A stretch of DNA of 64,000 bases from an uncultured Flavobacteriaceae bacterium (GTDB lineage: Bacteria > Bacteroidota > Bacteroidia > Flavobacteriales > Flavobacteriaceae): contig CANMXP010000007.1 in NCBI GenBank assembly GCA_947501845.1, positions 151,381 through 215,380 of the forward strand, written 5' to 3'. Shown here one piece after another: positions 19,275 through 49,274 of this stretch. A program made the position numbers and the translations under genes. Each line of letters starts with the position of its first letter. Position 1 is the first letter of the stretch. The notes beneath the pieces were generated by a model. It made no database searches. It was not told the DNA's origin and saw only the letters and a program-made list of their open reading frames with translations.

Positions 19275-19332
19275 AATTTATTTGATTTAATTTGCGTAAT
19301 TATTACACAAATATAAAAAGCGTTTTTGATTC

Positions 19333-19372: not shown

Positions 19373-19378
19373 AATGTG

Positions 19379-20804: not shown

Positions 20805-20807
20805 TAT

Positions 20808-21668: not shown

Positions 21669-21670
21669 AA

Positions 21671-23205: not shown

Positions 23206-23214
23206 TCTTACTAT

Positions 23215-23685: not shown

Positions 23686-23689
23686 ACCT

Positions 23690-24556: not shown

Positions 24557-24558
24557 CT

Positions 24559-25065
24559 TTAGTTTTCCTTTAATAATTCTTTATAAATCCTATAATTCTC
24601 ATCATCATAACACACAAAAATCACCTCTTCTATTATAGGGTTTTGTTTTACTGTTTTTATAGCAATTAATGCGGCTTTTTCTTTTGGAAACTTATAAATT
24701 CCTGTACTTATATTTGGAAAAGCAATACTCTTGACATTATTATCTTTTGCTAATTGTAAACTATTTTTGTAGCAATTTTCTAATAATTGTGCTTCATTAT
24801 TATTTCCTCCATTCCATACTGGACCTACTGTATGGGTTACATACTTAGAAGGTAATAACCCGCCAGTAGTAATCACTGCCTCGCCCGTTTTGCAACCACC
24901 TTGTTTATCCCTAATCTTTATACATGCTTCTAAGATTGTTTTACCTCCTGCTTTATGAATAGCCCCATCAACACCTCCTCCACCTAAAAGCGATGTGTTA
25001 GCTGCATTTACTATAATTTCTACAGCTACTTTTGTAATATTTCCTTGTATGCAACTAATTGTCAT
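24559..25065 (-). CDS. Macro-domain protein (MacroD/YmdB-like O-acetyl-ADP-ribose deacetylase / ADP-ribose-1''-phosphatase type)
   Basis: 168 aa. [23 protein letters not shown] ... GEAVITTGG ... [11 protein letters not shown] are the canonical macro motifs. Confidence 0.85.
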
Positions 25066-25901: not shown

Positions 25902-25963
25902 ATTGCGTTTATTTTACGCAAATGTATAAAGAGAAAATGAGATAACAAAATTTTGTGTAATAT

Positions 25964-26656
25964 TTACACAAACTTTATTTCAAAATGGAAATCGTTAACG
26001 GTAAGTTGCTTGAATTTCTTTTTATTAAATTTAAAAAGTTTGGCAGGGCGGCCACTTCCAATTTTTTCAATTTTATTGGTTTCTTCAATGATGCCAAAGC
26101 TTAGCGTTTTCTTTCTAAAATTTCTTCGGTCTATTTCTTTTTCTAAAATAGTCATATACAAATTTTCTAAATCGGAAAACGGAAACTCATCATTTAGCAA
26201 ATCAAAGCCAATAGGCTCATAGCTCAATTTTGCTTTTAATCGTTGATGCGCCATATCTAAAATCTGTTGATGATCAAATGCTAATTTTGGTAATTCATTT
26301 AGGTGATACCATTGTACATCTGCTGCATCTGTATCTGCTTTAATATTAAAATGATTAGGTTTTACCAATCCAAAATAACTTACTGAAAGCACTCTATTTC
26401 TAGGATCTCTTTTAGGAGTTCCAAATGTGTAGAGTTGCTCCAGGTAATCTATAGTTATTCCTGTTTCTTCACTAAGTTCCCTTTCTACAGCCTCTTCAAG
26501 CGATTCATTATTAAGAACCAAACCTCCAGGTAAGGCCCACTTCCCTTTAAAAGGTTCAATTCCGCGTTTAATTAATAATACTGACAGATTGTTTTTAGAT
26601 TCGTAACCAAATACAACTGCATCTACAGAGACTTTTATATCTTGATTCACTTTCAT
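25964..26656 (-). CDS. NUDIX hydrolase (ADP-ribose pyrophosphatase-like) with a ~80-aa C-terminal extension
   Basis: Nudix box GGLVLNNESLEEAVERELSEETGI (GX5EX7REUXEEXGU). 230 aa. Confidence 0.8.
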   Translation of the reverse strand: MKVNQDIKVSVDAVVFGYESKNNLSVLLIKRGIEPFKGKWALPGGLVLNNESLEEAVERELSEETGITIDYLEQLYTFGTPKRDPRNRVLSVSYFGLVKPNHFNIKADTDAADVQWYHLNELPKLAFDHQQILDMAHQRLKAKLSYEPIGFDLLNDEFPFSDLENLYMTILEKEIDRRNFRKKTLSFGIIEETNKIEKIGSGRPAKLFKFNKKKFKQLTVNDFHFEIKFV

Positions 26657-37241: not shown

Positions 37242-38342
37242 TTACTTATTCACTGAGAAAATGTCCTTTAACTGCTCAATAACGTTACCGTTACCAGCAA
37301 CAGTAATCTCACCAATTTTATCAGCAATTTTCTCTACGTATTCCATCTCTTTTAATTTAAACAACATACTGTTGTCTTCCATTAATTTTGCAGTATTTAA
37401 CAAGCTTCGTGTAGACGCAGTTTCTTCTCGTCTTGTTACCACATTTGCTTGCGCTTTTTTGTGAGCAATCAATACTTGGTTCATGATATCTTTCATATCA
37501 CCTGGTAAGATCACATCTCTAATACCAGTATGTAATACGTTTACACCCAATTTACCAGCTTGTGCTTTTACATCGTTTAAAACAGCTTGAGCAATAGTTT
37601 CTTTTTGCTCTAACAATTCATCTAATGTATAAGTACCAACAAAGGCTCTCAATGCTAATTGTAAGACAATATATAATTGCTTTTCGTAATCTTTATTGTG
37701 CATTAATGCAGTCTCAATGTTTGCGACTTTATATTGCGCATAAAAGTTAATACGAACTGTTGCCTTATCTTTAGTTAACAATTCTTGACCAGCAACTTCT
37801 AATTGTAACTGACGTAAATCGGCTTTTGCTATTTTAATCGTTTGGTCATTTCTCCAGAAGTGGTATGTACCATGTTCTAAAGTTTTTACAAACTTATCGT
37901 TTACAATCATAACCGCTTTTTCGTAAGCAGCTACTTCAAATACTCTGATGTATCTGCTTAATTCTGGCTTATTGTAGATTGCTTTTTCGATAGCTTCTGT
38001 AATCTCGATTTTGCTTAAATCTGCAGTTACAAATTTATAGTCAATCAAGCTATTCCAGTACGTGTAACGTCCTGCAGCTAATACCTGCTTAAAGTTACCG
38101 TTTTCGTATACCAAAACAATCTCATTATCCTTAACCTCAACTACGGTTAACATATCTGCCAAAGCTTGATCTTTAAGTAAGATCTCTAATGCTTTTGGCG
38201 CGTTAAATGGCTGAGACAAGCTATATTTTACAACTTTCGCTCTAAAGCCTATCCAATGCTTACCCTCGGTAATAACACGTGTGTAATTACCATTTTTAAA
38301 CACTAAACCTACCATACCTGCATGAATTCTTACTCTTTTCAT
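37242..38342 (-). CDS. SPFH/band-7 (stomatin/prohibitin-like) protein
   Basis: 366 aa. SPFH core (…ATVRINFYAQYKV…DELLEQKETIAQAV…) plus C-terminal coiled-coil (…HKKAQANVVTRREETASTRSLLNTAKLMEDN…). Confidence 0.75.
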   Translation of the reverse strand: MKRVRIHAGMVGLVFKNGNYTRVITEGKHWIGFRAKVVKYSLSQPFNAPKALEILLKDQALADMLTVVEVKDNEIVLVYENGNFKQVLAAGRYTYWNSLIDYKFVTADLSKIEITEAIEKAIYNKPELSRYIRVFEVAAYEKAVMIVNDKFVKTLEHGTYHFWRNDQTIKIAKADLRQLQLEVAGQELLTKDKATVRINFYAQYKVANIETALMHNKDYEKQLYIVLQLALRAFVGTYTLDELLEQKETIAQAVLNDVKAQAGKLGVNVLHTGIRDVILPGDMKDIMNQVLIAHKKAQANVVTRREETASTRSLLNTAKLMEDNSMLFKLKEMEYVEKIADKIGEITVAGNGNVIEQLKDIFSVNK

Positions 38343-38740
38343 GATTTCTAATTTTTTTGTTCTGATGTTTTTGTTTTTTTGTCAGAACGGTTAAACATTT
38401 ATAATAGAACCTCTTATTTAAAGGTAGCTATTCATTTGTAAAACAAAGCGAAGGAAAACCATCTTTCTAACTACGGAAACACAACCAATTTAAAGTGTTT
38501 TTAAGTATTGTTTCTTAGAAGATTAATCAATTAAGACATGCAAAAATTCACAATATCTTTTTTTGAAAAATGAGTCTTTAAAAGAACACTCAAAACATCT
38601 AAAAATGCGAGTGCATTTCAAGGTGTTGCCTGGACTGCTTAAACAACAAGTTGTTTTCGCGAGCTTTAATTCACTTTGTTTTTGTCGTTTAGAGTGAGAC
38701 ACACTTGAGACCTATTTTTAAAAGTTGGCCTTCTTTTCTA

Positions 38741-38805
38741 AAAATGGATAAAAGTCCACATCCTACATTATGAGTGTAGTGCTCTACCTACTGAGCTATG
38801 TAACC
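38741..38805 (-). ncRNA. tRNA-like element: intact tRNA-Met(CAU)-type 5' two-thirds (acceptor 5' strand, D-arm, anticodon arm CUACA-CUCAUAA-UGUAG) but degenerate T-arm and no matching acceptor 3' strand
   Basis: Reverse complement reads GGTTACATAGCTCAGTAGGTAGAGCACTACACTCATAATGTAGGATGTGGAC... Confidence 0.35.
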
Positions 38806-38810
38806 TAAAA

Positions 38811-38877
38811 TGGTGGTCACAACAGGATTCGAACCTGTGCAAAAATCTATTGCTCTAACCGCTGAGCTACTTCCCCA
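38811..38877 (-). ncRNA. tRNA-like element lacking an anticodon arm: acceptor-5'/D-arm (GGGGAAGTAGCTCAGCGGTTAGAGC) joined by 14 nt to a T-arm (CAGGTTCGAATCCTG), ending in genomically encoded ACCA. Candidate tRNA mimic (Y-RNA/YrlA-like)
   Basis: Reverse complement of 38811-38877. The complementary CTTCCCC lies 20 nt upstream in the transcript (38894-38900), adjacent to another T-arm. Confidence 0.35.
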
Positions 38878-40300
38878 TGTTTTCCGATATAATTAGAGGG
38901 GAAGATGGGAGTCGAACCCATGACACATAGATGTCGGTTATTGTTTAACCAAATAACCAGTTGGTACCAAGCCAAGTTGAACATAAAAACCTCATACGAA
39001 ACCGTAAGGATTTATACAATAGTGCTATATCGAAACACGTAACAAGACTTACTTGATATTTTTTCTGTAAAAACAGATATTTTGTACCTCTTACCAGATT
39101 CGAACTGGCACTTTCAGATTCCTCTGAACAGATAGGCTCTAAATGCGCTTCCCTACTTTACATCCTGCGTATTTCGGTGCTTCTGCAAAACCTAGTCATT
39201 GGCGGGCGCACCACCAACCACATCATCCTATCACTCCACGGTTACGTTAATCTTTTTCCGCAGCTCTTCCCTTTAAGCTAAAGAGGTATTTTATATTTAA
39301 AAAAAGCGTTCTGAGAATACCTTCGCTTATAGACAAGCTTTCCTAGTATTATAGCCGTAGCCTTTCTCTAGTTTTCCACATACTTCTCATTGCTTAGAGA
39401 AATATGTACTTGTCTGATGCCTAATTACATTACAGCTGTTCAGCGACTTAGACTTGGCTTGCATAGTGGTTATTTACCACGCTTTGCAACTACAAGGGTT
39501 GGCTCCCTCACCATTAGTAGGCGTCCTCTATTTGAGGCGGCCTATTAGAATGTTCACTACACAGTAAAGGCTTGCGACCTCTACCGTCCCATATATTGCA
39601 ATGGGTTTAGGCAACTACTAGCTGCTGTAATGTTCGAAGTCTTTTGCGATTTGCTCACCGACTGAGCTATCCTTAAATTGGTTTATAGGATGGGACTTGA
39701 ACCCAAATAGTTTTTCGACCTAGGAAAAGGGCTTCGAAAATGGCTTCGTAGATTTTTGCCCACAAAATACCAACCTTTTCCTTGTGTGCCTCCCAACACA
39801 CGACATTTTAAGTTACCGAACAATTTCTCATCGGGTCACTCTAATATTGCAATACGCTCCGCTAGGCTGGATAACCTAAACGTAACCCATTACTACAACT
39901 TTCCCTGTTGATGTCTCCATCGCAAGCCTAATTCCTGTTGGCTATAAGCTCTTATTTACTTTAGCGGTTGCCCCTAGCAAATAATAACTTATGTGAGTTG
40001 CTTGCTTACCTGTACTGCCTTCTAATGAAAGTAGTCTCCACTTGCTGTGTCCGCAAATAGATTTATCCTTGTTGCCAAGTTTATCTAAGGACGATAAGCC
40101 GCCCCATCACTCAATAACCGAGATTAAAGAATGATGATTTTTTATACTAATGAAACTAATATTTAGCTTCAATTTATGTCAATGAACATTTTTTATTAAG
40201 CTCTGCCAGTTTCTAACGTCTGGCAGAGCGCTACTTTTAAAAAGTCTAATTCCAAAAGACTTTTTAGATTCCCAATTTCTCGGGAATGACAGCTACCTGT

Positions 40301-40356
40301 CAATTACTCTGCAAATATTTTGTGATATTGCGCAATGATTTTGCGTAGTTAAAAAT
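40301..40356. promoter_or_regulatory. Copy of a shared ~55-bp cis-element (ctctgcaaatatttt-N5-attgcgcaat-N-attttgcgtagtt-aaaa) immediately upstream (minus orientation) of the ncRNA region
   Basis: Near-identical copy at 44511-44565. Related copy at 49358-49415. Confidence 0.5.
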
Positions 40357-40868
40357 TATTTTAATTTTCTAAATGTTAAACTCATTCTTCCGTTTTCAGT
40401 ATTTGATTTTGTTATAGCATGTTGCCACTCGTTTTGAATCTCATTAGCCATATAAATTAATGAACCAGAAACAAGATTAAAGTCAACAATTATCTCTCGA
40501 TTTTTAACATTTCTAAATCGAAGTGTTCTAGTCTCACCCACAGAAATAATCACTACACCTGTATCATTTTCTAGAATGTCTATTTGATCAGAATGAAATC
40601 CCATTGATGAGTTTCCATCTTCATAATAGTTTATCAAACAATTATTAGGTCTAAAACCAAGAGTACTATTAATGGATTCAATAATGTCTTTTAAGTCAGA
40701 TGTAAAAGGCTGAAAAGGATATTCCATTTGAGAATAATCATAAGCCCTTCCAAAACTAGCTGTTTTCCTTGCCGACATTCTTTCATCCCAAATAATATTA
40801 TTTTTTAATATTTCAAACAATGACTCATGATTATCTAAAAAGTTTTCTCTATAAATAATTCCTTCCAT
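40356..40868 (-). CDS. alkB: AlkB-family Fe(II)/2-oxoglutarate-dependent dioxygenase (nucleic-acid demethylase)
   Basis: 170 aa. HxD (MGFHSDQ), distal His (EWQHAI) and RxSxTFR (RMSLTFR) signature. Confidence 0.72.
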   Translation of the reverse strand: MEGIIYRENFLDNHESLFEILKNNIIWDERMSARKTASFGRAYDYSQMEYPFQPFTSDLKDIIESINSTLGFRPNNCLINYYEDGNSSMGFHSDQIDILENDTGVVIISVGETRTLRFRNVKNREIIVDFNLVSGSLIYMANEIQNEWQHAITKSNTENGRMSLTFRKLK

Positions 40869-40971
40869 AATTTTGTTAAATTTTATTCACTTGGTTTAAA
40901 AATTCCGCCAGATTTTAGGTTAAATAAAACCCAGCAGAATTAACTAACTAGGAACAGGGACCTATTCCTAA

Positions 40972-41466
40972 GTGAAGTACTTTACACCACCTTATCTGCA
41001 CAAGACGAACTTGCAAAGGCATAAGGTTTAGCTTTAAAGACAAACCCCATTCCTAATATATAGCCCATAGCATCCTTAAGCGCCACATTAGACTGAAACT
41101 TAGGGTCAGTATTAATATCTGCGTGTACCTCTAATTCAACATTATATTTGTCTAGTATATCACAGATAGTAATGCTACTTCAACAGACATTGTTACCTCT
41201 TTAAGCATTCGCTCTTTAATACCAATGTGTTTTGTGCCTTTATAATTTGTCATAAACATAAAACCACCTTTACCTTCTCGAAGTACTACAATGACAGTTG
41301 CATACTCTACGTGAGATTTATAGGCTTGAGAATCCGAACCCACACAAACCTTAAGACGATGTCCTGCTTTTTGCTCTCTTATAATGGCATTTTCTATGAT
41401 ATCTGTAATAGGCAGATCAAACACTTTACCACTAAAGTTTCTCCATTTTTGTTGTGCAATTTTCAT
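40972..41466 (-). pseudogene. DUF458/YkuK-family (RNase-H-like fold) gene interrupted by a single frameshift
   Basis: ORF 41152-41466 (…KVCVGSDSQ…VIVVLREGKGGFMF…VEVALLSVIY*) continues in another frame as CDILDKYNVELEVHADINTDPKFQSNVALKDAMGYILGMGFVFKAKPYAFASSSCADKVV* ending at 40972. Both halves match the YkuK pattern (GTDSQ…GKGG…HxDhxxD…KPxAFA). Confidence 0.5.
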
Positions 41467-41500
41467 GATTACTCATTTTTTTAGTTAAACATTTATATTG

Positions 41501-41573
41501 TGGAACAAACTGGACTCGAACCAGTATCTTCGGAGCTTCAATCCGACGCATAGACCTGTTTTGCTATTGTTCC
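41501..41573 (-). tRNA. tRNA-Phe (GAA)
   Basis: Manual fold of the reverse complement GGAACAATAGCAAAACAGGTCTATGCGTCGGATTGAAGCTCCGAAGATACTGGTTCGAGTCCAGTTTGTTCCA. Perfect 7-bp acceptor, anticodon loop UUGAAGC, T-loop TTCGAGT. CCA not encoded. Confidence 0.8.
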
Positions 41574-41578
41574 TTTTT

Positions 41579-41651
41579 GGGTGACTTTGGGATTCGAACC
41601 CTATTTTCCTCATTCACAGTGAGGTGTTTTACCACATAAACTAAAGCCACC
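41579..41651 (-). tRNA. tRNA-His (GUG)
   Basis: Anticodon arm CCUCA-CUGUGAA-UGAGG. Discriminator C. T-arm AGGGTTCGAATCCCA. Confidence 0.75.
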
Positions 41652-41659
41652 ATAGCCTG

Positions 41660-41730
41660 TTAATCCGATAGGACTCGAACCTATACCTCAGGAGTCAAAT
41701 TCCTGTATGCTGCCTTTACATCACGGATTA
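41660..41730 (-). tRNA. tRNA-Gln (UUG)
   Basis: Acceptor TAATCCG/CGGATTA. Anticodon arm CAGGA-AUUUGAC-UCCUG. T-arm ATAGGTTCGAGTCCTAT. Confidence 0.7.
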
Positions 41731-41735
41731 ATTTG

Positions 41736-41860
41736 TAGGTCTAATAGGATTTGAACCCATACCACAAGGGTCGAAATATTATATATTCACGAATTCCTAT
41801 TTAATGAAATGGTTATACAATGAGCTAAACCTTGTATGCTATCCGTTACACCATAGACCT
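41736..41860 (-). tRNA. Atypical ~125-nt tRNA-like gene: canonical acceptor (AGGTCTA/TAGACCT), D-arm and T-arm, UAG at the anticodon position, but a ~53-nt AT-rich insertion inside/after the anticodon loop (enclosed by helix CAAGG…CCTTG)
   Basis: Manual fold. Paralogous to 42420-42541, including the insertion. Confidence 0.45.
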
Positions 41861-41866
41861 ATTTTG

Positions 41867-41940
41867 TACTCCCCCTTGGATTCGAACCAAGACTTAACAG
41901 GGCTTAAACCTGATGCCTCTTCCATTTGGGCTAGTGGAGC
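41867..41940 (-). tRNA. 74-nt class-I (short variable arm) tRNA-like gene with anticodon UAA (Leu-type anticodon on a non-Leu-type body), discriminator A
   Basis: Anticodon arm (U)CAGG-UUUAAGC-CCUG(U). Acceptor GCTCCAC/GGGGAGT with one mismatch. Confidence 0.5.
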
Positions 41941-41945
41941 AATTG

Positions 41946-42019
41946 TACAGGGAAAGAGACTCGAACTCTCAAATTTCAGATTCTAAATCTGACGCCTATA
42001 CCTATTCGGCTACCCCTGC
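41946..42019 (-). tRNA. 74-nt class-I tRNA-like gene with anticodon UAG (Leu-type anticodon, short variable arm), discriminator A
   Basis: Anticodon arm UCAGA-UUUAGAA-UCUGA perfect. Acceptor GCAGGGG/TCCCTGT with two G·U. Confidence 0.5.
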
Positions 42020-42024
42020 ATGTG

Positions 42025-42098
42025 TTGAGATGTCAGAATTCGAACCTGAACCCTTCGCCTTATGAGAGCGATGCTCTACCAAATTAAGCTACATCTCA
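42025..42098 (-). tRNA. tRNA with CAU anticodon (elongator Met or lysidine-Ile2 type; U1-A72)
   Basis: TGAGATG-TAGCTTAATTTGGTAGAGCA-TCGCT-CTCATAA-GGCGA…CATCTCA-A. Confidence 0.75.
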
Positions 42099-42108
42099 CT
42101 ATGCCTTG

Positions 42109-42181
42109 TTGAGATATTAGGACTTGAACCTAAACCTATCATCGTATCAGGATGATGCTCTACCAATTAAGCTATATCTCA
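42109..42181 (-). tRNA. tRNA-Ile (GAU)
   Basis: TGAGATA…TCATC-CTGATAC-GATGA…TATCTCA-A. Confidence 0.78.
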
Positions 42182-42186
42182 ATATG

Positions 42187-42258
42187 TTGAGGCAATAGGA
42201 TTCGAACCTATGACTTTCACGATGTAAGCGTGACGCTCTTCCTCTGAGCTATACCTCA
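42187..42258 (-). tRNA. tRNA-Val (UAC)
   Basis: TGAGGTA…TCACG-CTTACAT-CGTGA…TGCCTCA-A. Confidence 0.75.
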
Positions 42259-42263
42259 ATTTG

Positions 42264-42335
42264 TACTCCGTAAGGGAATTGAACCCTTAATTCCACATAG
42301 AAAGTGTGGCGTCTTAGCCATTTGACCAACGGAGC
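42264..42335 (-). tRNA. tRNA-Glu (UUC)
   Basis: GCTCCGT…CCACA-CTTTCTA-TGTGG…ACGGAGT-A. Confidence 0.7.
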
Positions 42336-42340
42336 TATTG

Positions 42341-42412
42341 CGGTTCATACGAGAATCGAACTCGTATCTCCCGAGAGACAGTCGGGAAGGATAACCATTA
42401 CCCCAATGAACC
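42341..42412 (-). tRNA. tRNA-Asp (GUC), discriminator G
   Basis: GGTTCAT…CCCGA-CTGTCTC-TCGGG…ATGAACC-G. Confidence 0.75.
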
Positions 42413-42419
42413 AATTTTG

Positions 42420-42541
42420 TACATCTACTAAGATTCGAACTTAGACTTAGAGATTAGAAATGCTATGCATTCACAAACACCTTCATTTAAAATAAAATGA
42501 GTGAGCTAAATCTCTTGTGCTATCCCTTACACCATAGATGC
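42420..42541 (-). tRNA. Atypical ~122-nt tRNA-like gene, paralogue of 41736-41860: acceptor GCATCTA/TAGATGT, D-arm TGGTGTAAGGGATAGCA, loop start TTTAGCTCA (UAG), ~50-nt insertion closed by helix AGAGA…TCTCT, normal T-arm
   Basis: Manual fold. The insertions of the two paralogues align (…TTAAAT…GTGAAT…ATTTC…). Confidence 0.45.
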
Positions 42542-42547
42542 ATGTTG

Positions 42548-42630
42548 TGGAAGTGGTAGGACTCGAACCTACAAACTCATAAGAGACCAGATTTACAGTC
42601 TGGCGAGCCAACCAATTGCTCAACACTTCC
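42548..42630 (-). tRNA. tRNA-Tyr (GUA), class II with long variable arm
   Basis: GGAAGTG…CCAGA-CTGTAAA-TCTGG + 13-nt variable arm + GTAGGTTCGAGTCCTAC + CACTTCC-A. Confidence 0.78.
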
Positions 42631-42638
42631 TTTATTTG

Positions 42639-42711
42639 AGACAAGGATGAGATTCGAACTCATAAATAACGGATTTGCAATCAGACGCCTTAGCCATTCA
42701 GCCACCTTGTC
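42639..42711 (-). tRNA. tRNA-Cys (GCA)-like, discriminator U. The anticodon stem has two mismatches relative to a canonical Cys tRNA (UCUGA…UCCGU), so possibly a weakened/pseudo tRNA
   Basis: GACAAGG…TCTGA-TTGCAAA-TCCGT…CCTTGTC-T. Confidence 0.5.
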
Positions 42712-42715
42712 TTAG

Positions 42716-42787
42716 CTATATTGGAAGGATTCGAACCTACAACTTCAGACTTAACAGGTCTTTGCTCTACCTTTGAGCTACAATATC
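42716..42787 (-). tRNA. tRNA-Asn (GUU), discriminator G
   Basis: Anticodon loop CUGUUAA. T-arm GTAGGTTCGAATCCTTC. One G1·A72 mismatch in the acceptor. Confidence 0.65.
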
Positions 42788-42792
42788 ATTTG

Positions 42793-42880
42793 CGGAGAGT
42801 AGAGGAATCGAACCTCCACCGCCTCTGGTGCGGCCTTGTTTAGCAGACAAGTGCAACAAACCAATATTTGCCTACTCTCC
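42793..42880 (-). tRNA. tRNA-Ser (GCU), class II, discriminator G
   Basis: GGAGAGT…CTTGT-CTGCTAA-ACAAG + 16-nt variable stem-loop + GGAGGTTCGATTCCTCT + ACTCTCC-G. Confidence 0.78.
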
Positions 42881-42894
42881 ATTAATTACTTTCG

Positions 42895-42967
42895 TCTGAG
42901 AGACAGGATTCGAACCTGCAACCTCTCGCTTCCAAAGCGAGTAAACCAACCATCGTTATCCTCTCAG
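42895..42967 (-). tRNA. tRNA-Pro (UGG), C1-G72, discriminator A, G at position 8
   Basis: CTGAGAG…CTCGC-TTTGGAA-GCGAG…CTCTCAG-A. Confidence 0.65.
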
Positions 42968-42972
42968 TTTTG

Positions 42973-43115
42973 CGGAAGGAGTGGGAGTCGAACCCACACG
43001 AGTCATTAACTCCGAACACTTTTAACTCAAAGATTTCTATTCTGATAAACAGGATTCGTTGAATTCGTAAACACATTTCAAGAGTGTGGCCACCACTAAT
43101 TTGGCTTGTCCTTCC
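42973..43115 (-). tRNA. Atypical ~143-nt tRNA-like gene: acceptor GGAAGGA/TCCTTCC, discriminator G, apparent anticodon arm ACACU-CUUGAAA-UGUGU (UGA, Ser-type), T-arm GTGGGTTCGACTCCCAC, but ~75 nt between the anticodon stem and the T-stem (Ser variable arm plus ~55-nt AT-rich insertion)
   Basis: Manual fold of the reverse complement. Confidence 0.4.
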
Positions 43116-43121
43116 GTTTTG

Positions 43122-43194
43122 TTGACGCGGTGGGTCTCGAACCCACGACCTCGGCGTTAAAAGCACCTTGCTCTGCCAACTGAGCTACGCGTCA
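43122..43194 (-). tRNA. tRNA-Lys (UUU), discriminator A
   Basis: TGACGCG-TAGCTCAGTTGGCAGAGCA-AGGTG-CTTTTAA-CGCCG…GTGGGTTCGAGACCCAC-CGCGTCA-A. Confidence 0.75.
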
Positions 43195-43218
43195 CTATGT
43201 TATTTCAATGAACATCAT

Positions 43219-43256
43219 AAAAAAAGCGCCTCGTTTTATGGAAGGCGCTTTTTTTA
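43219..43256. terminator. A-tract / GC hairpin / T-tract (aaaaaaagcgcct-cgttttatgga-aggcgcttttttt). Bidirectional terminator-like structure at the 5' side of the tRNA array
   Basis: Read directly. Confidence 0.55.
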
Positions 43257-43379
43257 TATTTATGAATACGTATCTATGTATCCATAACCTTCCTAGTATA
43301 TATTGTAAATCTTTCATCATTCCCTGCCGCGACCATCTGTTTCGGCGAGCCTATGCAGAGACTTATTTGAATAGTATGT

Positions 43380-43670
43380 TCTAAATAGTTTGTCATTTGT
43401 TTTTTAATTATTTCGACGGTGCAAATATGAAATGTATTTTTGAATTACACAAGAAAAATATCAATTTAATTTACTGACAATCAATTAGTTATGTTAGGTT
43501 TAGAAAATAGAGTCCCTGTCCGTTTTTTACGGATAATCGTTAATTTTCACAATAGTCAGTCTCCCTGTTGTTTATCAATTATTTGCTATTTTTTATACTT
43601 GCTTAACTTTTCATTTTATTTTTAAAAAAATTCATAAAAAAAGCGTCCAATTTTCATTGGACGCTCGATA
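43380..43670. repeat. Copy A of a ~270-bp intergenic module also present at 47470-47725. Ends in the hairpin aaaaaaagcgtccaat-tttc-attggacgct
   Basis: Aligned blocks, e.g. aattacacaagaaaaatatcaatttaatttactgacaatcaattagtta vs aattacgcaagaaaaaaaataatttaatttactaaaaatcaaatagtta. Confidence 0.55.
43634..43665 (-). terminator. 10-bp stem hairpin followed (on the minus strand) by a U-tract. Intrinsic terminator downstream of the HEPN-like gene and upstream of the tRNA array
   Basis: agcgtccaat/attggacgct with tttc loop. A8 tract on the plus strand. Confidence 0.6.
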
Positions 43671-43853
43671 TTCTAAGTTTTAACTGTGTTTAATTCACAA
43701 TTTATGTTTTAAATTTAGATACAAAACGTCCGTTTAGATGATTCAGTAAAACTTCTGACCCTCTATAATCACATTCACTAAAGCGTGATTTCGGTTGAAT
43801 ATGTATCTGTTTTGTTATCATTTTTTGTTATTACGAAGCAAATATAACTTTTA

Positions 43854-44492
43854 TTATTTTTCAGTTGGTTTATAATCATCGGGATATGGAAATGAGTCTG
43901 TCAAGCTTCTCATTATAATTAAAAAATTTTTTAGTTCGACAAAAAACTCATCGAAGTCTCCAATATCTCTATTTTTATATGCGTGTATTGCATTTCGCCT
44001 TTGTTGAATTTTTAAAATCCAATCAATTATATCCAACCTTCCTTCTTCTTTCCAAATTTCTCTTATTTTTTTTGGATAAATTTCTTTAGCAAAAAATACT
44101 CTTAACTTTTCTAATATTAATATATCTGGTTCAATTAATCCCCCGTGTTTATCTCTGTATCCTCTTAATGTCGATTTTAAGGCACTTTCTTCATAACTAC
44201 TGTGCCATACAGAAAGGAATAATTTTAACACTCCTTCGGTCAAACTACCCAAAGTTGTCCACGCAAGTATTAAACCACCATCCTCCTTTTTTATGTCGTC
44301 AGTATTAAAAACACGCAGAACTCTAGCTAATGACGCTTGCCAATCTAATCTTGATTTAGCCATTAAGTCAGCTACTTTTATGGGTGCCCATCCATTAGAA
44401 CTACTCCAAAAATCAGCAAGTCCTTCTGTCAATTTTATTATTCTTTCTATAACCTCTTCATTAGAATAAGCTAAAGGTTCATTCTCCTCCAT
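43854..44492 (-). CDS. Hypothetical protein with a C-terminal HEPN-like Rx4H motif (…QQRRNAIHAY…). Candidate HEPN RNase/RNA-binding domain
   Basis: 212 aa. Motif seen by eye. No other recognisable domain. Confidence 0.35.
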   Translation of the reverse strand: MEENEPLAYSNEEVIERIIKLTEGLADFWSSSNGWAPIKVADLMAKSRLDWQASLARVLRVFNTDDIKKEDGGLILAWTTLGSLTEGVLKLFLSVWHSSYEESALKSTLRGYRDKHGGLIEPDILILEKLRVFFAKEIYPKKIREIWKEEGRLDIIDWILKIQQRRNAIHAYKNRDIGDFDEFFVELKNFLIIMRSLTDSFPYPDDYKPTEK

Positions 44493-44510: not shown

Positions 44511-44565
44511 TTACTCTGCAAATATTTTACACTATTGCGCAATATTTTTGCGTAGTAAAAATCAT
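44511..44565. promoter_or_regulatory. Copy of the shared ~55-bp cis-element (ctctgcaaatatttt-N5-attgcgcaat-atttttgcgtagt-aaaa) directly upstream of the HEPN-like gene
   Basis: ~90% identical to 40301-40356. Confidence 0.5.
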
Positions 44566-45101
44566 TTCCTTTTCTTCTTTGATTTTTTAGATGATTTCTT
44601 CTTTTTATCCAATTTCATCTTCTTTTCTATACGCCTTTGTTCATCTACCATAAAATCATAATAATGATCATTATAGCAGTGCCTTTTTGCTTCTTTTAAG
44701 TATTTTAAGCAGGTTTTGTATTTTCCTTGCGTTTCCTCTATATAAGAAGACAACCAATTTATTTCGGCTTTACTTATCGTTTCTATAGTTTGTGAAAAGT
44801 CTACTAGTTTTTTTGCTCTATCTATCTTGTTATTCCAAATTAGGTATTTGATGTACATTGGATAAACATCTTCGTAACTGGTATCTATAGCAATAACTTT
44901 ATCAAAACATTCAAATGCTTTCTCTGGCATCGATAAATATTTTGCATAGATTTCTCCTAATAAGCAAAGTGACGCACAGTGGTTTTCATCGTACGAAAGT
45001 GCATAGTTTAAAGATTCACAAACTTCTTCCCAGTCACTACAAAAACCACTTGTTGCAGCTTTTGCTTTTAAATAATAACTGTCTGCTAATGTTAATCCCA
45101 T
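44562..45101 (-). CDS. TPR-like helical-repeat protein with lysine-rich C-terminal tail
   Basis: 179 aa. Tail [17 protein letters not shown]. Overlaps prfH by 10 nt (operon). Confidence 0.35.
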
Positions 45102-45787
45102 TTTTGTTGTCTTAAATTATTCTTTAATTCTTGTCGTTTAGACTTGTAATTTTTATTTATTTTTTGTGTTTTAAAATCAGTTCCAATAAAAACACGTACT
45201 GGATTCCCTCTTTCTAAATTGAGGTGGTTTCCCCATTGGTTCTGAACTGATTTTTTTAATTGCTCATTATTATATTCAGCTACTTTTTCTTGTAACCGTT
45301 TTATAGCTATCTTTTTATTTTGGTGCTGAGACCTGCTGTCCATTACCAAAACCTGTATGCCTGTTTTTGTATGTGTTGCTCTAATGGCTGAGCTTACTTT
45401 ATTAACATGTTGTCCTCCTGGCCCTGAACTTCTAATAGCTTGAAATTTTATATCGCTATCTATTAAAAGAGTCCCTTTCTCAGCTTCAATTTCATAAATA
45501 CCAACAAACCAATTTTTTCGCTTACGAAATTTTCTGAAAGATGATTTTCCTATCCATTGTACTGTCCCCAACCAATTGCTTAAAAAAGACTCCAACGCTT
45601 TTCCTTGTAATTGAATAGTTGCAGATTGTAACGTTCCGTTTTCTGTACCAGATTCTCTTTGTAATAGCGTATATTCTATTTTCGCTTTTTTTATCTCTTC
45701 AATGAAATACTTTAAAACTTGAGCTACAACCCAGCAACATTCAATAGGTCCTCTTCCTGATGTTATTTGTATTGTTTTTGTTTTCAT
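45092..45787 (-). CDS. prfH: PrfH (peptide-chain-release-factor homologue H), the partner of RtcB2 in ribosome/rRNA-repair modules
   Basis: 231 aa. GGQ motif [15 protein letters not shown]. Short RF-like architecture lacking a codon-recognition domain. Start overlaps the rtcB stop. Confidence 0.8.
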
Positions 45788-47178
45788 TATTTATCCATTC
45801 TAACAATTTTTGGTGTAAATGTTCCTAACACTTCTACCAATTCTTGTTGATTATTCATTACTTTTTTAATGTTCTTATAAGCCATTGGTGCTTCATCTAC
45901 GCCACCACCAATAAGCGTAACATCATGCATTTTTAATTGCTGCTTTATATCACTTTTTGTGAATTTCTCTTTGCACTTTCTTCGTGAATGCAAACGTCCT
46001 GCTCCATGAGATGCCGAGTTTAAGCTTTCACTATTACCCAAGCCTTGTACTATATATCCAGGAGCAGTCATCGATCCTGGGATAATACCCAACTCGCCTT
46101 TATTGGCTGGTGTTGCTCCTTTACGATGTACAATACATTCTTTATCGTTTACCATTTCTTTCCAAGCAAAATTGTGGTGATTTTCAATCTTAACTACAGC
46201 TTTAGAACCCAGTAACTTTCCTATGCGATAATGAATGTCGTCATGACATGCCTTAGCGTAATCACCAGCTAGATTCATAGCTAGCCAATATTCTTGACCA
46301 TCATGCGTATTTAAATCCAGCCATGCTAAATGCTGAACATTTTTAGGTAATGGGCATTGTTTACTAGCTAAATAGGTATAATGTTTTGCAATGTTAGCTC
46401 CTAATCCTCTTGAGCCACTATGTGACAATACACCTATGTAATCACCAGCTTTAAGCTGCCATTGATTATCCTCATCCGTTATAGAAACCACTCCAAACTC
46501 CACAAAATGATTGCCTCCTCCCGATGTTCCCAATTGCTTAAATGCTTTTATCTTTAACCGTTTTAGTAAAGGAATATCGTCAAACTCAGCTCTTGCAAAA
46601 ATCTCATGGTCGTGTTTTTTATCATGTGTTTCATACATCCCAAATTTGGTGTGATTTGATAAAATATTCTCCAACTGATGTTGCTTCCCCTTTAAATAAG
46701 AAGCTTTCATTGGGTAAATGGTTAAACACATTCTACACCCAATATCTACCCCAACACCATAAGGAATTACTGCATTATCAGTTGCTAAAACAGCGCCTAT
46801 TGGCAACCCATAACCTGAATGTGCATCTGGCATTAAAGCTCCTGATACAGCTATTGGTAATTTTAAGGCATCGTATAATTGGTACTTTGCTTGTTCATCA
46901 ATCTCGTTTTCACCATAAATATTAAAAGGCACTCTTGTATTTTTAAGTTGATGAAATTTAACCTCAACTGGCTTTACCAAACCTTCAACTACTTTTCCCC
47001 AAATGGCATTACCTTGAAATTTTTCTGGGTTTTGTAATACGGCTTTCGCTTCTTCCAAAATGCGTTCTTTTTTTTCTCTTTTTCGGTATCTGTTTATTTG
47101 CCCTAAAGCAATATTGATACTATTATTTTTTGGGAACCCCAATTTTATTAGGTCTTTCCCTTTTAGTTTATTTCCCAT
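45787..47178 (-). CDS. rtcB: RtcB-family RNA 3'-phosphate/5'-OH ligase (RtcB2-type, paired with PrfH)
   Basis: 463 aa. [33 protein letters not shown] catalytic motifs. Confidence 0.85.
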
Positions 47179-47469
47179 GATATAATGAGATGTTAGATGT
47201 TAGAGGAAAGACATAAGACGTTCCTCATAAAATATGTTTTGTATGGTATTTCGGAAAGTGTTGCCTTAAAAATTAAGGCATAAAAAAAGTCCAAAACGTT
47301 TTGGCTTCGGACTCTTTTAATATGATAGATGAAATTCTATGTAATAGGAAAGTAGTCTCGAAGCGTATGCACAATAGAACCTGGTTCTTTTTGTGTATTT
47401 TTATTTAATTGATACTTGAACATGTACTTCGTTTTTAGTTGAAAAGACCTTTCGACTGCGCTCAAGGTG

Positions 47470-47725
47470 ACAATTCAAAATTAATAATTTGTTTTGCTTT
47501 ATTGCGATGCAAAGATGATATGCATTTTTTAATTACGCAAGAAAAAAAATAATTTAATTTACTAAAAATCAAATAGTTAACTTGATTTTAAACAATAGAA
47601 TTTCTGTCCGCATTATGCAGATATTGCAATTAATTGATAAACGGATATTTAGCTTTAAACTCACATGTTGCCAAATCGGAAAAAAATTATAAAAAAAAGC
47701 GTCCAATTTCTTGGACGCCTTTTAG
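47470..47725. repeat. Copy B of the ~270-bp intergenic module (see 43380-43670). Ends in the hairpin aaaaaaaagcgtccaa-tttc-ttggacgc
   Basis: Alignment with copy A. Confidence 0.55.
47691..47722 (-). terminator. Hairpin + U-tract terminator (minus strand) downstream of the second RtcB gene
   Basis: gcgtccaa/ttggacgc stem, A8 tract on plus. Confidence 0.6.
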
Positions 47726-47888
47726 ATTTTATACCTTTTTAAAGTTTTCACCTATTTCATGTGTAGTAGAAATAGCTTTTCAGCATCCTTTTTATGTTTA
47801 ATTAATATATCACTCATAGGTTTAAACTTTTATTTAATTTGTAATTGTTGAGTGCAAATATGCATAAAATTTAGCAAACTTTCCAAAA

Positions 47889-49274
<1,386 letters not shown>

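What the first reader, a model, noticed from the sequence alone, without database searches (positions are those of the whole stretch)
41736..41860. Three tRNA-like genes carry ~50-55-nt AT-rich insertions. Two are paralogous, with the insertion enclosed by the anticodon-stem helix
Genes at 41736-41860 and 42420-42541 share acceptor/D-arm/T-arm features and the loop start TTTAGCTCA (UAG at the anticodon position), followed by ~50 nt closed by a 5-6-bp helix (CAAGG…CCTTG; AGAGA…TCTCT). The helix abuts a normal 4-nt variable loop and T-arm. So the insertion lies within the anticodon loop, like an intron, yet it is far too short for the group-I introns known in bacterial tRNAs.

The two insertions align with each other (TTAAAT…GTGAAT…ATTTC), so the insertion is conserved, not debris.

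A third gene (42973-43115) has a ~55-nt insertion between the anticodon stem and the T-stem.

Possibilities: a novel short intervening sequence needing a dedicated endonuclease/ligase (RtcB is adjacent), non-translational tRNA mimics with an extended anticodon arm, or decoy substrates for anticodon nucleases.
Basis: seen in the sequence. Interest (0 to 1): 0.75.

Follow-up and report, generated by a model that had tools for sequence, protein, structure and literature searches.

The report
Hairpin mini-transposon interrupting spare tRNA genes
Three spare tRNA genes (two arginine, one serine), next to RNA-repair genes in a marine flavobacterium, are each split in the anticodon loop by a copy of a roughly 50-base mobile hairpin element that lands only in tRNA loops, and whether it is later cut out like an intron is not known.

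Summary
The three genes are tRNA-Arg(UCG), tRNA-Arg(UCU) and tRNA-Ser(UGA), members of a 19-gene tRNA array in an RNA-repair island of a Flavobacteriaceae chromosome. Each carries a 50-55-nt insertion in the anticodon loop. The true anticodon lies at the 3' end of the insertion, not at "UAG".

All three insertions belong to one element family. The copy in the serine gene is in reverse orientation. I found 26 copies in ten related arrays and none elsewhere in about 1 Mb. All lie in the 7-nt anticodon loop or T loop, at 5'-WTT^C/G, in either orientation. Orthologous genes in relatives are empty sites. Removing the element exactly restores a normal tRNA in 18 of the 21 interrupted array genes (17 fully canonical).

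The element is not a group I intron and has no bulge-helix-bulge motif. Reverse copies show that it spreads as DNA. My best reading (about 0.5) is a selfish hairpin mini-transposon colonising dispensable tRNA genes. However, interrupted genes look as intact as uninterrupted ones, and they decay only where an intact duplicate sits beside them. RNA-level removal with resealing by the adjacent RtcB therefore stays open (about 0.27). I found no published description.

The parts
41735..41860 (-). tRNA-Arg(UCG) gene interrupted in the anticodon loop (gene A)
   Evidence: ARAGORN intron mode. After exact removal of the element the ARAGORN score is 121.0, against 121.5 for intact orthologues.
41774..41826 (-). 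Element copy A, 53 bp, forward relative to the tRNA: AGCTCA...TTCGTGAAT-ATATAATAT-TT, flanked by TTT on both sides. The cut position is equivalent from 31/32 to 34/35.
   Evidence: nhmmer E about 1e-9. Core coordinates and equivalent cut shifts.
42419..42541 (-). tRNA-Arg(UCU) gene interrupted in the anticodon loop (gene B)
   Evidence: Score after excision is 117.3, against 116.9 for intact orthologues. The same-site copy in L143 has 88% element identity.
42458..42507 (-). Element copy B, 50 bp, forward orientation
42972..43115 (-). tRNA-Ser(UGA) gene interrupted in the anticodon loop (gene C), with a normal long variable arm
   Evidence: Intron-less orthologues occur in L003, L004, L125 and L126. 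Score after excision is 108.0, against 108.2 for intact orthologues.
43024..43078 (+). Element copy C, 55 bp, with the element top strand on the + strand, so reverse relative to the tRNA. It belongs to the subtype with GTTGAATTCGTAAAC.CATTT.
   Evidence: Same-site copies in L127 and L200 are 85-89% identical.
41500..43194 (-). Long tRNA array (L-array type) of 19 genes: 16 uninterrupted and 3 interrupted
   Evidence: Orthologous arrays occur in nine related genomes.
45787..47178 (-). RtcB RNA ligase, the candidate sealing enzyme if the element is removed from RNA (context only)
   Evidence: Pfam PF01139, E = 7.5e-83.
45092..45787 (-). PrfH (release factor H), the usual partner of RtcB (context only)
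   Evidence: TIGR03072, E = 8.8e-70, above the curated cut-off.
47889..49271 (-). Second, divergent RtcB-family protein (context only)
   Evidence: PF01139, E = 2.5e-33.
40985..41466 (-). RNase H-like (PF04308) gene immediately downstream of the array in every related genome. It is frameshifted here (context only).

Best explanation
**What it is.** The three genes are tRNA-Arg(UCG), tRNA-Arg(UCU) and tRNA-Ser(UGA). They belong to a spare, L-type tRNA array inside an RNA-repair island of a Flavobacteriaceae chromosome (Psychroserpens/Winogradskyella group). Each is interrupted in its anticodon loop by one copy of a 47-55-bp non-coding hairpin element.

**Anatomy of the element (shown).** The top strand reads A(G/A)CTCA, then a long imperfect hairpin closed by TCA...TGA, then AT, then a small hairpin (GCnnnGC or a variant), then ATTT.

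**How it inserts.**
- Shown: it sits at 5'-(A/T)TT^C/G-3', and only in the 7-nt anticodon loop or T loop of array tRNA genes.
- Shown: it occurs in whichever orientation puts TTC on its top strand.
- Shown: related genomes have empty orthologous sites.
- Inferred: it therefore spreads as DNA. It probably uses single-stranded hairpin DNA extruded by the tRNA gene and an enzyme supplied in trans, in the manner of IS200/IS605-type peel-and-paste elements.

**Consequence (inferred, about 50% likely).** The element is a selfish coloniser of dispensable spare tRNA genes. The interrupted genes give no working tRNA while the element is in place. Some of them then decay or are replaced.
For: **One family, found only in tRNA loops.**
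- There are 26 copies in the window plus nine related arrays, and none elsewhere in about 1.06 Mb searched.
- The window holds exactly three.

**Both orientations.**
- 9 copies are forward in anticodon loops, 4 are reverse in anticodon loops and 13 are reverse in T loops.
- An anticodon-loop forward copy (window A) shares CATTAAATAGGAATTCGTGAAT with a T-loop reverse copy (L126 Asn).

**Empty orthologous sites and exact junctions.**
- Intron-less Arg(TCG), Arg(TCT), Ser(TGA), Gln, Trp, Glu, Phe and Val genes occur in relatives.
- Exact removal of the core restores an ARAGORN-recognised tRNA in 18 of the 21 interrupted array genes (17 fully canonical; L127 Gln keeps a 6-nt loop), including three genes that carry two copies each.

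**Targeting rather than survivorship.**
- The arrays contain 850 WTT^S sites. Only 23% lie in anticodon or T loops, 241 lie in harmless spacers and 99 in D loops.
- Yet 22 of 22 copies counted lie in the two 7-nt loops (P about 1e-14, or about 1e-9 if only 14 insertion events were independent).

**The element's hairpins are conserved.** They show compensatory changes.

**Relatives exist outside tRNA genes** in metagenomes.

**Some hosts are dead.**
- L125 Gln has two copies and has lost its 3' acceptor strand.
- L126 Pro has a truncated 3' end.
- The Gln gene of L127 and L125 would have a 6-nt loop after excision.
- L125 Trp carries G19A and a T-stem mismatch.

**No RNA-level signal common to both orientations.** There is no bulge-helix-bulge motif, no Rfam ribozyme or intron hit and no endonuclease candidate nearby.
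Against: - After excision, interrupted hosts are as good as uninterrupted array tRNAs. The ARAGORN score difference is -0.6 +/- 4.3. Unpaired stem positions are 0.78 against 0.81 per gene. Universal-nucleotide violations are 0.44 against 0.32.
- The two clearly decayed hosts are exactly the two that have an intact copy of the same tRNA next to them. All other interrupted array genes are the only copy of that anticodon in their array and look intact apart from the short loop of L127 Gln. My own Fisher estimate for this association is about 0.004.
- Same-site copies differ by structure-preserving changes in the host. For Ser(UGA), window against L127, there are 2 double compensatory changes, 2 one-sided changes and 0 disruptive changes among 12 differences.
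- Two RtcB genes flank the array.
- No transposase was seen within 10 kb of five arrays.
- The element has no terminal inverted repeats.
Confidence: 0.5

Rival explanations
1. **Intervening sequence removed from the RNA.** The element spreads as DNA but behaves as an intron. The pre-tRNA is cut at both loop junctions by a structure-specific nuclease or a repair-pathway nuclease, and the loop is resealed by the adjacent RtcB (or by an Rnl2-type ligase in some relatives). The RNA-repair pathway would then double as a tRNA-splicing pathway.
For: - Host tRNAs are as intact as uninterrupted ones, and three of the genes that hold two copies are still recognised as tRNAs.
- Decay is seen only where an intact duplicate exists.
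- Host stems flanking same-site copies show compensatory changes.
- Junctions always allow an exact 7-nt loop to be restored, apart from the Gln gene.
- Two RtcB genes, PrfH, two RlaP genes and AlkB surround the array. An Rnl2-like ligase is present in L125.
- In Anabaena, rtcB is co-regulated with the L-array (PMC8421152).
- Anticodon-loop breaks are the classical substrate of RNA repair ligases (established knowledge).
Against: - Forward and reverse copies give complementary RNA sequences at the junctions (UUU^AGC and UUU^C against G^AAA and CU^AA). No sequence-specific RNase could serve both.
- No bulge-helix-bulge motif.
- No EndA-like or other candidate endonuclease in the neighbourhood.
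- Some hosts are dead, including a Gln gene that still looks intact although its loop would be 6 nt. Intact appearance is therefore weak evidence.
- The arrays are recombining mosaics, so dating insertions against host divergence is unsafe.
Confidence: 0.27
2. **Removal at the DNA level.** Precise excision, either peel-and-paste or like the internal eliminated sequences (IES) of ciliates, regenerates the intact tRNA gene in part of the population. The elements would then act as reversible locks on spare tRNA genes.
For: - The same motifs are conserved in both orientations, which fits recognition of DNA.
- Exact excision restores the gene.
- Orthologous sites are either empty or filled, with no scars.
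- The element's own 3' end (ATTT) mimics the target WTT, as in IS200/IS605 elements, where the left-flank and right-end cleavage sites are read in the same way (established knowledge).
Against: - No recombinase or transposase was found nearby.
- Both orientations occur within one array, whereas IS200/IS605 elements show a strand bias.
- I have no evidence of excision events.
Confidence: 0.1
3. **Function without removal.** The long forms work as they are, as tRNA-like RNAs with an extended anticodon arm. They might act as decoys or sponges for tRNA-cleaving toxins, or as regulators.
For: - The tRNA body is conserved.
- The authors of PMC8421152 speculated that array tRNAs might act as sponges for toxin RNases.
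Against: - The same element also disrupts T loops, which destroys the tRNA elbow.
- Orientation is variable.
- Most orthologues lack the element.
- The 'UAG anticodon' on which this idea rested is an artefact.
- The folds of A and B are no more stable than shuffled sequence (z = -0.68 and -0.57).
Confidence: 0.06
4. **A classical intron.** The element is either a degenerate group I self-splicing intron or an archaeal-type bulge-helix-bulge intron.
For: - The position is in the anticodon loop, with U before the 5' junction.
- RtcB is the archaeal tRNA-splicing ligase (established knowledge).
Against: - At 50-55 nt it has no group I core, and Rfam gives no hit even at E = 10.
- The intron ends in U, not G.
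- Anticodon-loop copies cannot form the 4-bp central helix of a bulge-helix-bulge motif, and in T-loop copies the bulges are wrong.
- Reverse-orientation copies exist.
Confidence: 0.02

Closest known systems
Non-canonical tRNA introns of Thermoproteales (Archaea) that spread between tRNA genes by intron transposition (recalled from memory: Fujishima et al. 2010; not retrieved here)
   Same: - Short (tens of nt), related intervening sequences found in many different tRNA genes.
- They occur at several positions, including the anticodon loop and the T loop, sometimes with more than one per gene.
- They are sporadic among orthologues.
- The ligase is RtcB.
   Different: - Those introns carry a bulge-helix-bulge motif, are cut by EndA, and are all in the sense orientation.
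- Here there is no such motif and no EndA was found.
- The host is a bacterium, both orientations occur, and the target is a strict WTT^C/G site.
Group I self-splicing introns in bacterial tRNA anticodon loops (surveyed in PMC13011429)
   Same: - They interrupt the anticodon loop of bacterial tRNA genes.
- They are missed by standard tRNA finders.
- They are sporadic.
   Different: - Group I introns are at least about 200 nt long, with a catalytic core, and are self-splicing.
- This element is 50-55 nt, has no Rfam match, also sits in T loops and occurs in both orientations.
Small hairpin mobile elements: MITEs, REP elements with their RAYT transposases, and IS200/IS605-derived palindrome-associated transposable elements (PATEs)
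   Same: - Non-coding, tens of bp, built around hairpins.
- Many diverged copies, with presence or absence varying between genomes.
- A short specific target, either orientation, and mobilisation in trans.
- For IS200/IS605: insertion 3' of a short target without terminal inverted repeats, and seamless excision.
   Different: - Known families sit in intergenic DNA.
- To my knowledge and in the searchable literature, none is reported to be confined to the anticodon and T loops of tRNA genes.
- No partner transposase has been identified here.
Intervening sequences (IVS) in bacterial 23S rRNA helices 25 and 45
   Same: - Extra hairpins inserted into terminal loops of a structural RNA gene.
- Sporadic among strains and operons, and transcribed with the host RNA.
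   Different: - IVS are removed by RNase III without religation, and the rRNA works in pieces.
- A tRNA cut in its anticodon loop would need religation.
[quoted passage not shown]
   Same: - The host locus is such an array: 19-22 tightly packed tRNA genes, roughly one per anticodon, beside RNA-repair genes.
- L-arrays are reported in Bacteroidetes.
   Different: That study does not describe interrupted genes or loop insertions. It notes only that 3 of 26 Anabaena array tRNAs were undetectable.

Membership tests
Bulge-helix-bulge, protein-spliced tRNA intron (archaeal/eukaryal type) | Two 3-nt bulges separated by a 4-bp helix formed by 5'-exon positions -6 to -3 and intron positions -6 to -3 | tested here: not met
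   Tested over all equivalent cut positions. Window copies reach only 2-3 of 4 pairs, and those pairs clash with the anticodon stem. T-loop copies can pair G53UUC56 with GAGC, but the outer helix is then out of register, giving a 5-nt bulge.
Bulge-helix-bulge, protein-spliced tRNA intron (archaeal/eukaryal type) | A splicing endonuclease (EndA/Sen family) encoded in the genome | tested here: inconclusive
   No such domain was found in the window ORFs scanned or in about 20 kb around five related arrays. Whole genomes could not be searched.
Bulge-helix-bulge, protein-spliced tRNA intron (archaeal/eukaryal type) | An RtcB-type ligase is available | tested here: met
   Two RtcB-family genes, at 45787-47178 and 47889-49271.
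Bulge-helix-bulge, protein-spliced tRNA intron (archaeal/eukaryal type) | Mature spliced tRNA exists | not testable with these tools
   No RNA data are available.
Group I intron in tRNA | Catalytic core (P3-P9), length of about 200 nt or more, and a match to the Rfam group I intron model | tested here: not met
   The insertions are 50-55 nt. Rfam gives no match in 38000-44000 even at E = 10.
Group I intron in tRNA | U at the last 5'-exon position and G at the last intron position | tested here: not met
   U precedes the 5' junction, but for every equivalent cut position the intron ends in T or A.
Non-autonomous mobile DNA element (MITE-like) | Multiple homologous copies at non-homologous sites | tested here: met
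   26 copies in 10 tRNA species and two kinds of loop.
Non-autonomous mobile DNA element (MITE-like) | Orthologous empty sites and exact junctions | tested here: met
   Intron-less orthologues exist. Exact excision restores the tRNA in 18 of 21 interrupted array genes, 17 of them fully canonical.
Non-autonomous mobile DNA element (MITE-like) | A defined target with a short direct repeat | tested here: met
   WTT^C/G target with TT or TTT on both sides.
Non-autonomous mobile DNA element (MITE-like) | Terminal inverted repeats | tested here: not met
   The ends, AGCTCA... and ...GCATTT, are not inverted repeats. The hairpins are internal.
Non-autonomous mobile DNA element (MITE-like) | An autonomous partner or transposase | tested here: inconclusive
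   None within the window or within 10 kb of five arrays. Complete genomes were not searchable.
IS200/IS605-type single-strand (peel-and-paste) element | Insertion 3' of a short target without duplication, sub-terminal hairpins and seamless excision | tested here: inconclusive
   The junctions fit the reading 'inserted 3' of WTT, with the element ending in ATTT', and two hairpins are present. A 2-3-nt target duplication explains the same data.
IS200/IS605-type single-strand (peel-and-paste) element | Orientation bias relative to replication | tested here: not met
   Both orientations occur within single arrays.
L-type tRNA array (PMC8421152) | A long, tightly spaced tRNA gene array, distinct from housekeeping genes, next to RNA-processing or repair genes such as rtcB | tested here: met
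   19 genes in 1.7 kb with spacers of 4-13 nt. RtcB, PrfH, RlaP, AlkB and Band 7 genes flank it.

The most novel reading that the evidence does not exclude
These would be the first protein-dependent (not self-splicing) tRNA introns in Bacteria. Under this reading a roughly 50-nt hairpin element spreads as DNA into anticodon and T loops. It is tolerated because the neighbouring RNA-repair machinery, a loop-cutting nuclease plus RtcB, excises it and reseals the loop. That would give bacterial RtcB a splicing role, and it would show how archaeal and eukaryal tRNA introns could have arisen from loop-targeting transposons.
Probability: 0.27. Interest if true: 0.95.

Novelty: new variant of a known kind. 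Interest (0 to 1): 0.72.

Why it matters
**Annotation.** tRNA genes split by about 50 nt are invisible to standard tRNA finders. Array gene content is therefore under-counted. Here Arg-UCG, Arg-UCU and Ser-UGA were missed.

**Targeting.** A mobile element whose target is the loop of a tRNA hairpin, and not the surrounding spacers, is an unusual and very specific preference. It points to recognition of folded single-stranded nucleic acid.

**An open question made testable.** The locus offers a direct test of what bacterial RtcB is for, and of whether bacteria ever splice tRNAs with enzymes. One tRNA-seq or RT-PCR experiment on a culturable Winogradskyella or Psychroserpens strain would decide between dead genes and spliced genes.

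**Origin of introns.** If the genes are spliced, this is a living example of a transposon becoming a tRNA intron.

Tried and rejected
- **Phage origin.** I first took the locus for a phage tRNA array. This is rejected. SusC/SusD genes, a type IX secretion sorting domain and housekeeping genes surround it, and phage collections hold no relative.
- **Known RNA families.** Rfam at E up to 10 gives no ribozyme, intron or other family inside the insertions, and none for the non-tRNA relatives.
- **Thermodynamic signal.** The minimum-free-energy folds of A and B are not better than shuffled sequence (z = -0.68 and -0.57).
- **Bulge-helix-bulge motif.** Not present.
- **First DNA patterns.** Patterns built from A and B alone found only a chance coding match or nothing in viral contigs. 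A looser pattern gave 120 chance hits with no tRNA context.
- **T-loop and context-free patterns.** They found nothing in viral contigs. Plasmid and phage BLAST also found nothing.
- **Which strand folds.**
  - The element's top strand folds better than its complement in 8 of 9 forward copies and 10 of 17 reverse copies.
  - In the fixed stem pairs, reverse copies show 8 G.T against 8 A.C mismatches.
  - The top strand is T-rich, so I treat this test as inconclusive.
- **Molecular clock.** Same-site element copies (72-92% identity) are more alike than AlkB four-fold sites (46-84%). However, the Gln segment of L125 and L127 is about 96% identical where AlkB four-fold sites are 53% identical. 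The arrays recombine, so the clock is invalid. I rejected it as evidence for constraint.
- **Operator hypothesis for the GAATGCnnnGCATT palindrome.** There are no further copies in the window, and the changes in the palindrome are compensatory, as expected for a hairpin.
- **Guide pairing with the flank.** The element's internal GTTCG or GTTG can pair with the 3' flank CGAAC (T loop) or CAAC (Phe). The forward anticodon-loop copies do not co-vary with their flanks, so I left this as an observation.
- **Candidate endonuclease.** Pfam and NCBIfam give nothing for the ORFs at 43854-44492 and 44562-45101.
Full report
**1. The observation**

The window carries a tRNA array on the minus strand. ARAGORN in default mode finds 16 genes between 41500 and 43194 and leaves three gaps of about 125, 123 and 144 nt. 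Rfam's tRNA model also skips these gaps.

With introns allowed, ARAGORN converts each gap into a complete cloverleaf:
- tRNA-Arg(TCG) at 41735-41860 with a 53-nt insertion
- tRNA-Arg(TCT) at 42419-42541 with a 50-nt insertion
- tRNA-Ser(TGA) at 42972-43115 with a 55-nt insertion

These are the acceptor, D and T arms, the closing helices CAAGG/CCTTG and AGAGA/TCTCT, and the 4-nt variable loops.

Two details are wrong. First, 'TTTAGCTCA' is not an anticodon loop with UAG. It is a TTT repeat plus the left end of the insertion. The true loops, TTTCGAC and TTTCTAA, lie at the 3' end of the insertion. Second, the third insertion is in the anticodon loop of a class II tRNA-Ser, not between the anticodon stem and the T stem. 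Arg and Ser(UGA) are exactly the specificities otherwise missing from the array.

**2. Where the locus lies**

The window is not a phage. It encodes SusC/SusD proteins, a protein with a type IX secretion sorting domain, an MFS transporter and purine/NAD enzymes.

The array is surrounded by RNA-repair genes:
- two RlaP nucleotidyltransferases
- a Band 7 protein
- AlkB
- an RNase H-like protein (PF04308)
- PrfH (TIGR03072, above its cut-off)
- two RtcB-family ligases

A GOLLD-like RNA also lies nearby (133 bits, E = 5.5e-36, below the gathering score of 150).

The closest AlkB homologues come from Psychroserpens, Winogradskyella and other Flavobacteriaceae. The array matches the long 'L-arrays' that Santamaria-Gomez et al. 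link to rtcB and translational stress, and which they report in Bacteroidetes (PMC8421152).

**3. Orthologous arrays**

I fetched the neighbourhood of AlkB homologues. Five came by exact-protein look-up and 80 from species-representative genomes. Ten loci carry the same array directly upstream of the RNase H-like and AlkB genes.

Winogradskyella PG-2 (L004) has intron-less Ser(TGA), Arg(TCT), Gln, Trp and Phe genes. L126 has an intron-less Arg(TCG) whose anticodon arm reads 'acaagg tttcgac ccttgt', which is the window gene minus the insertion. Empty orthologous sites therefore exist.

Other arrays carry homologous insertions in other tRNAs:
- Gln(TTG) in L127 and L125
- Trp(CCA) in L125
- Glu(TTC) in L148 and L200
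- Phe(GAA) in L126

**4. One family, two orientations, two loops**

The insertion in Ser(TGA) and Phe(GAA) is the reverse complement of the one in Glu(TTC). That one in turn aligns with the Arg, Gln and Trp insertions.

An iterated nhmmer profile finds 26 non-redundant copies in about 1.06 Mb. This covers the whole window, the ten arrays with their flanks, and 70 AlkB loci that lack an array. Every copy lies inside a tRNA gene, or in one case a tRNA-like gene beside the GOLLD-like RNA:

| Position and orientation relative to the tRNA | Copies |
|---|---|
| Anticodon loop, forward | 9 |
| Anticodon loop, reverse | 4 |
| T loop, reverse (between G57 and A58) | 13 |

A profile built without the window copies hits exactly the three window insertions (E = 5e-8 to 9e-7; next best 0.39).

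Read on the element's top strand, every copy has the form: x-(A/T)TT, then A(G/A)CTCA, then a long hairpin, then TGAAT, then a small hairpin or tail, then ATTT, then C/G-y. The empty site is therefore WTT^C/G. The cut position is ambiguous over 3-5 nt because of the T repeat.

Orientation follows the strand that carries TTC. It is the sense strand for Arg, Glu and Trp, and the antisense strand for Phe(GAA), Ser(UGA)+A and the T loop (ATT^CGAA).

**5. Structure of the element**

On the 26-sequence alignment A2, two stems are supported by compensatory change. One is the stem that closes the long hairpin (columns 7-11 with 39-43; pair 10-40 is CG 7, UG 6, AU 5, UA 3). The other is the small 3' hairpin (pair 46-55 is GC 15, AU 5). 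Overall 85.9% of cells are paired, against 21-40% when the partner columns are slid, and none of 500 shuffles reaches the observed value.

An alternative hairpin pairs the internal TTCG with the flanking CGAA of the T loop.

There is no bulge-helix-bulge motif. The window copies reach only 2-3 of the 4 central pairs, and those pairs compete with the anticodon stem. T-loop copies can pair G53UUC56 with GAGC, but the outer helix is then out of register. No Rfam family matches.

**6. Targeting or survivorship?**

The ten cleaned arrays contain 850 WTT^S sites:

| Location of the cut | Sites |
|---|---|
| Spacers between genes | 241 |
| Stems | 161 |
| D loops | 99 |
| Anticodon or T loops | 199 (23%) |

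All 22 copies that lie in tRNAs recognised after excision are in the two 7-nt loops. The probability under uniform site use is about 1e-14, or about 1e-9 if only 14 events were independent.

Insertions into spacers would be harmless, so their absence cannot be due to selection. The insertion process itself must recognise the 5-bp stem with its 7-nt loop. Together with the reverse-orientation copies, this points to a DNA-level process acting on folded single-stranded DNA. This last step is inference. No transposase lies within 10 kb of five arrays.

**7. Are the interrupted genes alive?**

*Evidence that they are alive*
- Exact removal of the core restores an ARAGORN-recognised tRNA in 18 of the 21 interrupted array genes, 17 of them fully canonical, including three genes with two copies each.
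- Their scores match uninterrupted tRNAs of the same anticodon (difference -0.6 +/- 4.3).
- Stem defects are equal: 0.78 against 0.81 unpaired stem positions per gene (p = 0.78).
- Universal nucleotides are kept equally well: 0.44 against 0.32 violations (p = 0.26).
- For Ser(UGA), the window and L127 genes differ at 12 positions, with two double compensatory changes, two one-sided changes and no disruptive change in stems.
- The two clearly decayed hosts, L125 Gln and L126 Pro, are the only ones with an intact copy of the same tRNA beside them. L126 Leu(TAA), which I first took for a remnant, is a full gene carrying this element plus a second, unrelated 45-nt insertion.

*Evidence that they are dead*
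- The Gln gene of L127 and L125 would have a 6-nt loop after excision, yet in L127 it still looks otherwise intact.
- L125 Trp has G19A and a T-stem mismatch.
- Forward and reverse copies present complementary sequences at the RNA junctions, so one sequence-specific RNase cannot process both.
- No nuclease candidate was found.

*The attempted clock failed.* Same-site element copies (72-92% identity) are about as diverged as their exons, and both are more alike than AlkB four-fold sites. However, the Gln segment is about 96% identical between L125 and L127, where AlkB four-fold identity is 53%. The arrays are recombining mosaics, so the comparison says nothing about constraint.

**8. Distribution**

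- No copy was found in IMG/VR viral contigs, GenBank phages or plasmids.
- A context-free pattern found 34 metagenome stretches. Fourteen resemble the element, and most are not in tRNAs:
  - one locus shared by five peat contigs, just upstream of a gene for a secreted protein
  - two copies on one contig (L228)
  - two TARA ocean contigs, upstream of an ORF
  - one copy in the T loop of a tRNA-Val 3' fragment (L240)
- The module is therefore a more general small repeat of Bacteroidota-like genomes, and the tRNA-loop lineage is one branch of it.

**9. Literature**

Full-text searches found no description of short interruptions of this kind in bacterial tRNA genes. [quoted passage not shown]

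**10. Verdict**

*Shown*
- The three window genes are tRNA-Arg(UCG), tRNA-Arg(UCU) and tRNA-Ser(UGA).
- Each is interrupted by a copy of one mobile hairpin element family.
- The family targets WTT^C/G in anticodon and T loops, in either orientation, with empty orthologous sites.

*Inferred*
- Insertion happens at the DNA level, through hairpin single-stranded DNA and an enzyme acting in trans.

*Open*
- The fate of the interrupted genes.

| Reading | Weight |
|---|---|
| Selfish interruption of dispensable genes | about 0.5 |
| Removal from the RNA, with the loop resealed by RtcB | about 0.27 |
| Precise excision at the DNA level | about 0.1 |
| Function of the unspliced form | about 0.06 |
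| Classical intron | about 0.02 |

I file it as a new variant of a known kind (a small hairpin mobile element) with an unprecedented target. It also has a realistic chance of being a bacterial, enzyme-spliced tRNA intron.

Noticed in passing
window 39305-39782 (-) and 39084-39287 (-): A GOLLD-like RNA (RF02032, 133 bits, E = 5.5e-36, below the gathering score of 150) is followed by a tRNA-like gene ('acctctttagcttaaaggg...ccagttcgaatctggtaagaggtac') with an internal insertion of about 120 nt. The same pair follows AlkB in L127, L148 and L178. In L126 the T loop of this tRNA-like gene carries a copy of the element (L126:11734-11784).
   Followed up: partly
window 38745-38929 (-): This stretch holds degenerate tRNA pieces. 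Two Rfam tRNA hits are only 61-63 nt long (36 and 32.5 bits), one lacking an anticodon arm. A weak YrlA (Y RNA-like) hit overlaps them (33.6 bits, E = 1.6e-4). No Ro/Rsr gene was seen in the window.
   Followed up: no
window 40985-41466 (-): The RNase H-like (PF04308) gene lies directly downstream of the array in all relatives, where it encodes 161 aa. Here it is split into two reading frames near 41168-41172. This is either a frameshift (pseudogene) or a sequencing error.
   Followed up: yes
window 47179-47888: A 710-nt stretch between the two RtcB-family genes has no ORF longer than 55 aa on either strand and no Rfam match at gathering scores. It may hold an unannotated RNA or a regulatory region.
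   Followed up: no
window 43195-43853 (-): About 650 nt without genes lie upstream of the first array gene (tRNA-Lys). They contain two terminator-like GC hairpins followed by T runs on the minus strand, at about 43215-43255 and 43640-43672. The second of these in transcription order ends only about 20 nt before tRNA-Lys. This suggests a leader or attenuator controlling the array.
   Followed up: no
L003:8887-9005 and L126:8761-8925: tRNA-Leu(UAA) carries a different, unrelated insertion of about 45 nt (ATTGGCGA.TAAAAACA..TGTTTTTA.GA.GG.ACCGAACGAAGTT...) at the 5' side of the anticodon arm, conserved between the two genomes. In L126 the same gene also has a T-loop copy of the main element. A second family of tRNA-interrupting sequence therefore exists in these arrays.
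   Followed up: partly
L125:8880-9135 and L126:7350-7555: Interrupted and decayed Gln and Pro genes each sit directly next to an intact, divergent allele of the same tRNA. The L125 and L127 Gln segments are about 96% identical although AlkB four-fold sites are 53% identical. The arrays appear to be mosaics that exchange segments by recombination.
   Followed up: partly
L216:7337-7383, L217, L220, L226, L231 (peat metagenomes); L234:2118-2165 and L237:2854-2896 (TARA): Shorter relatives of the element (AGCTCAC...TATTCGTGAATGCTTCGCATTTC) lie 0-20 nt upstream of the start codon of a divergently read gene, which in the peat contigs encodes a secreted protein. The small hairpin shows compensatory GC/AT changes between contigs. 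No Rfam family matches.
   Followed up: partly
L240:8480-8700: In a GC-richer organism, an intact tRNA-Val is followed by a duplicated 3' fragment of itself. The T loop of that fragment is split, at the same G57/A58 position, by a related insertion of about 110 nt that looks like two units.
   Followed up: no
window 17820-26656 and 30327-35249: Next to the RNA-repair island lies an NAD-salvage and ADP-ribose cluster (NAMPT-like protein, PRPP synthetase-like protein, NrtR-type Nudix regulator, ADP-ribosylglycohydrolase). There is also a 1640-aa DUF3686/AAA ATPase. These gene sets are often seen in conflict or defence contexts.
   Followed up: no
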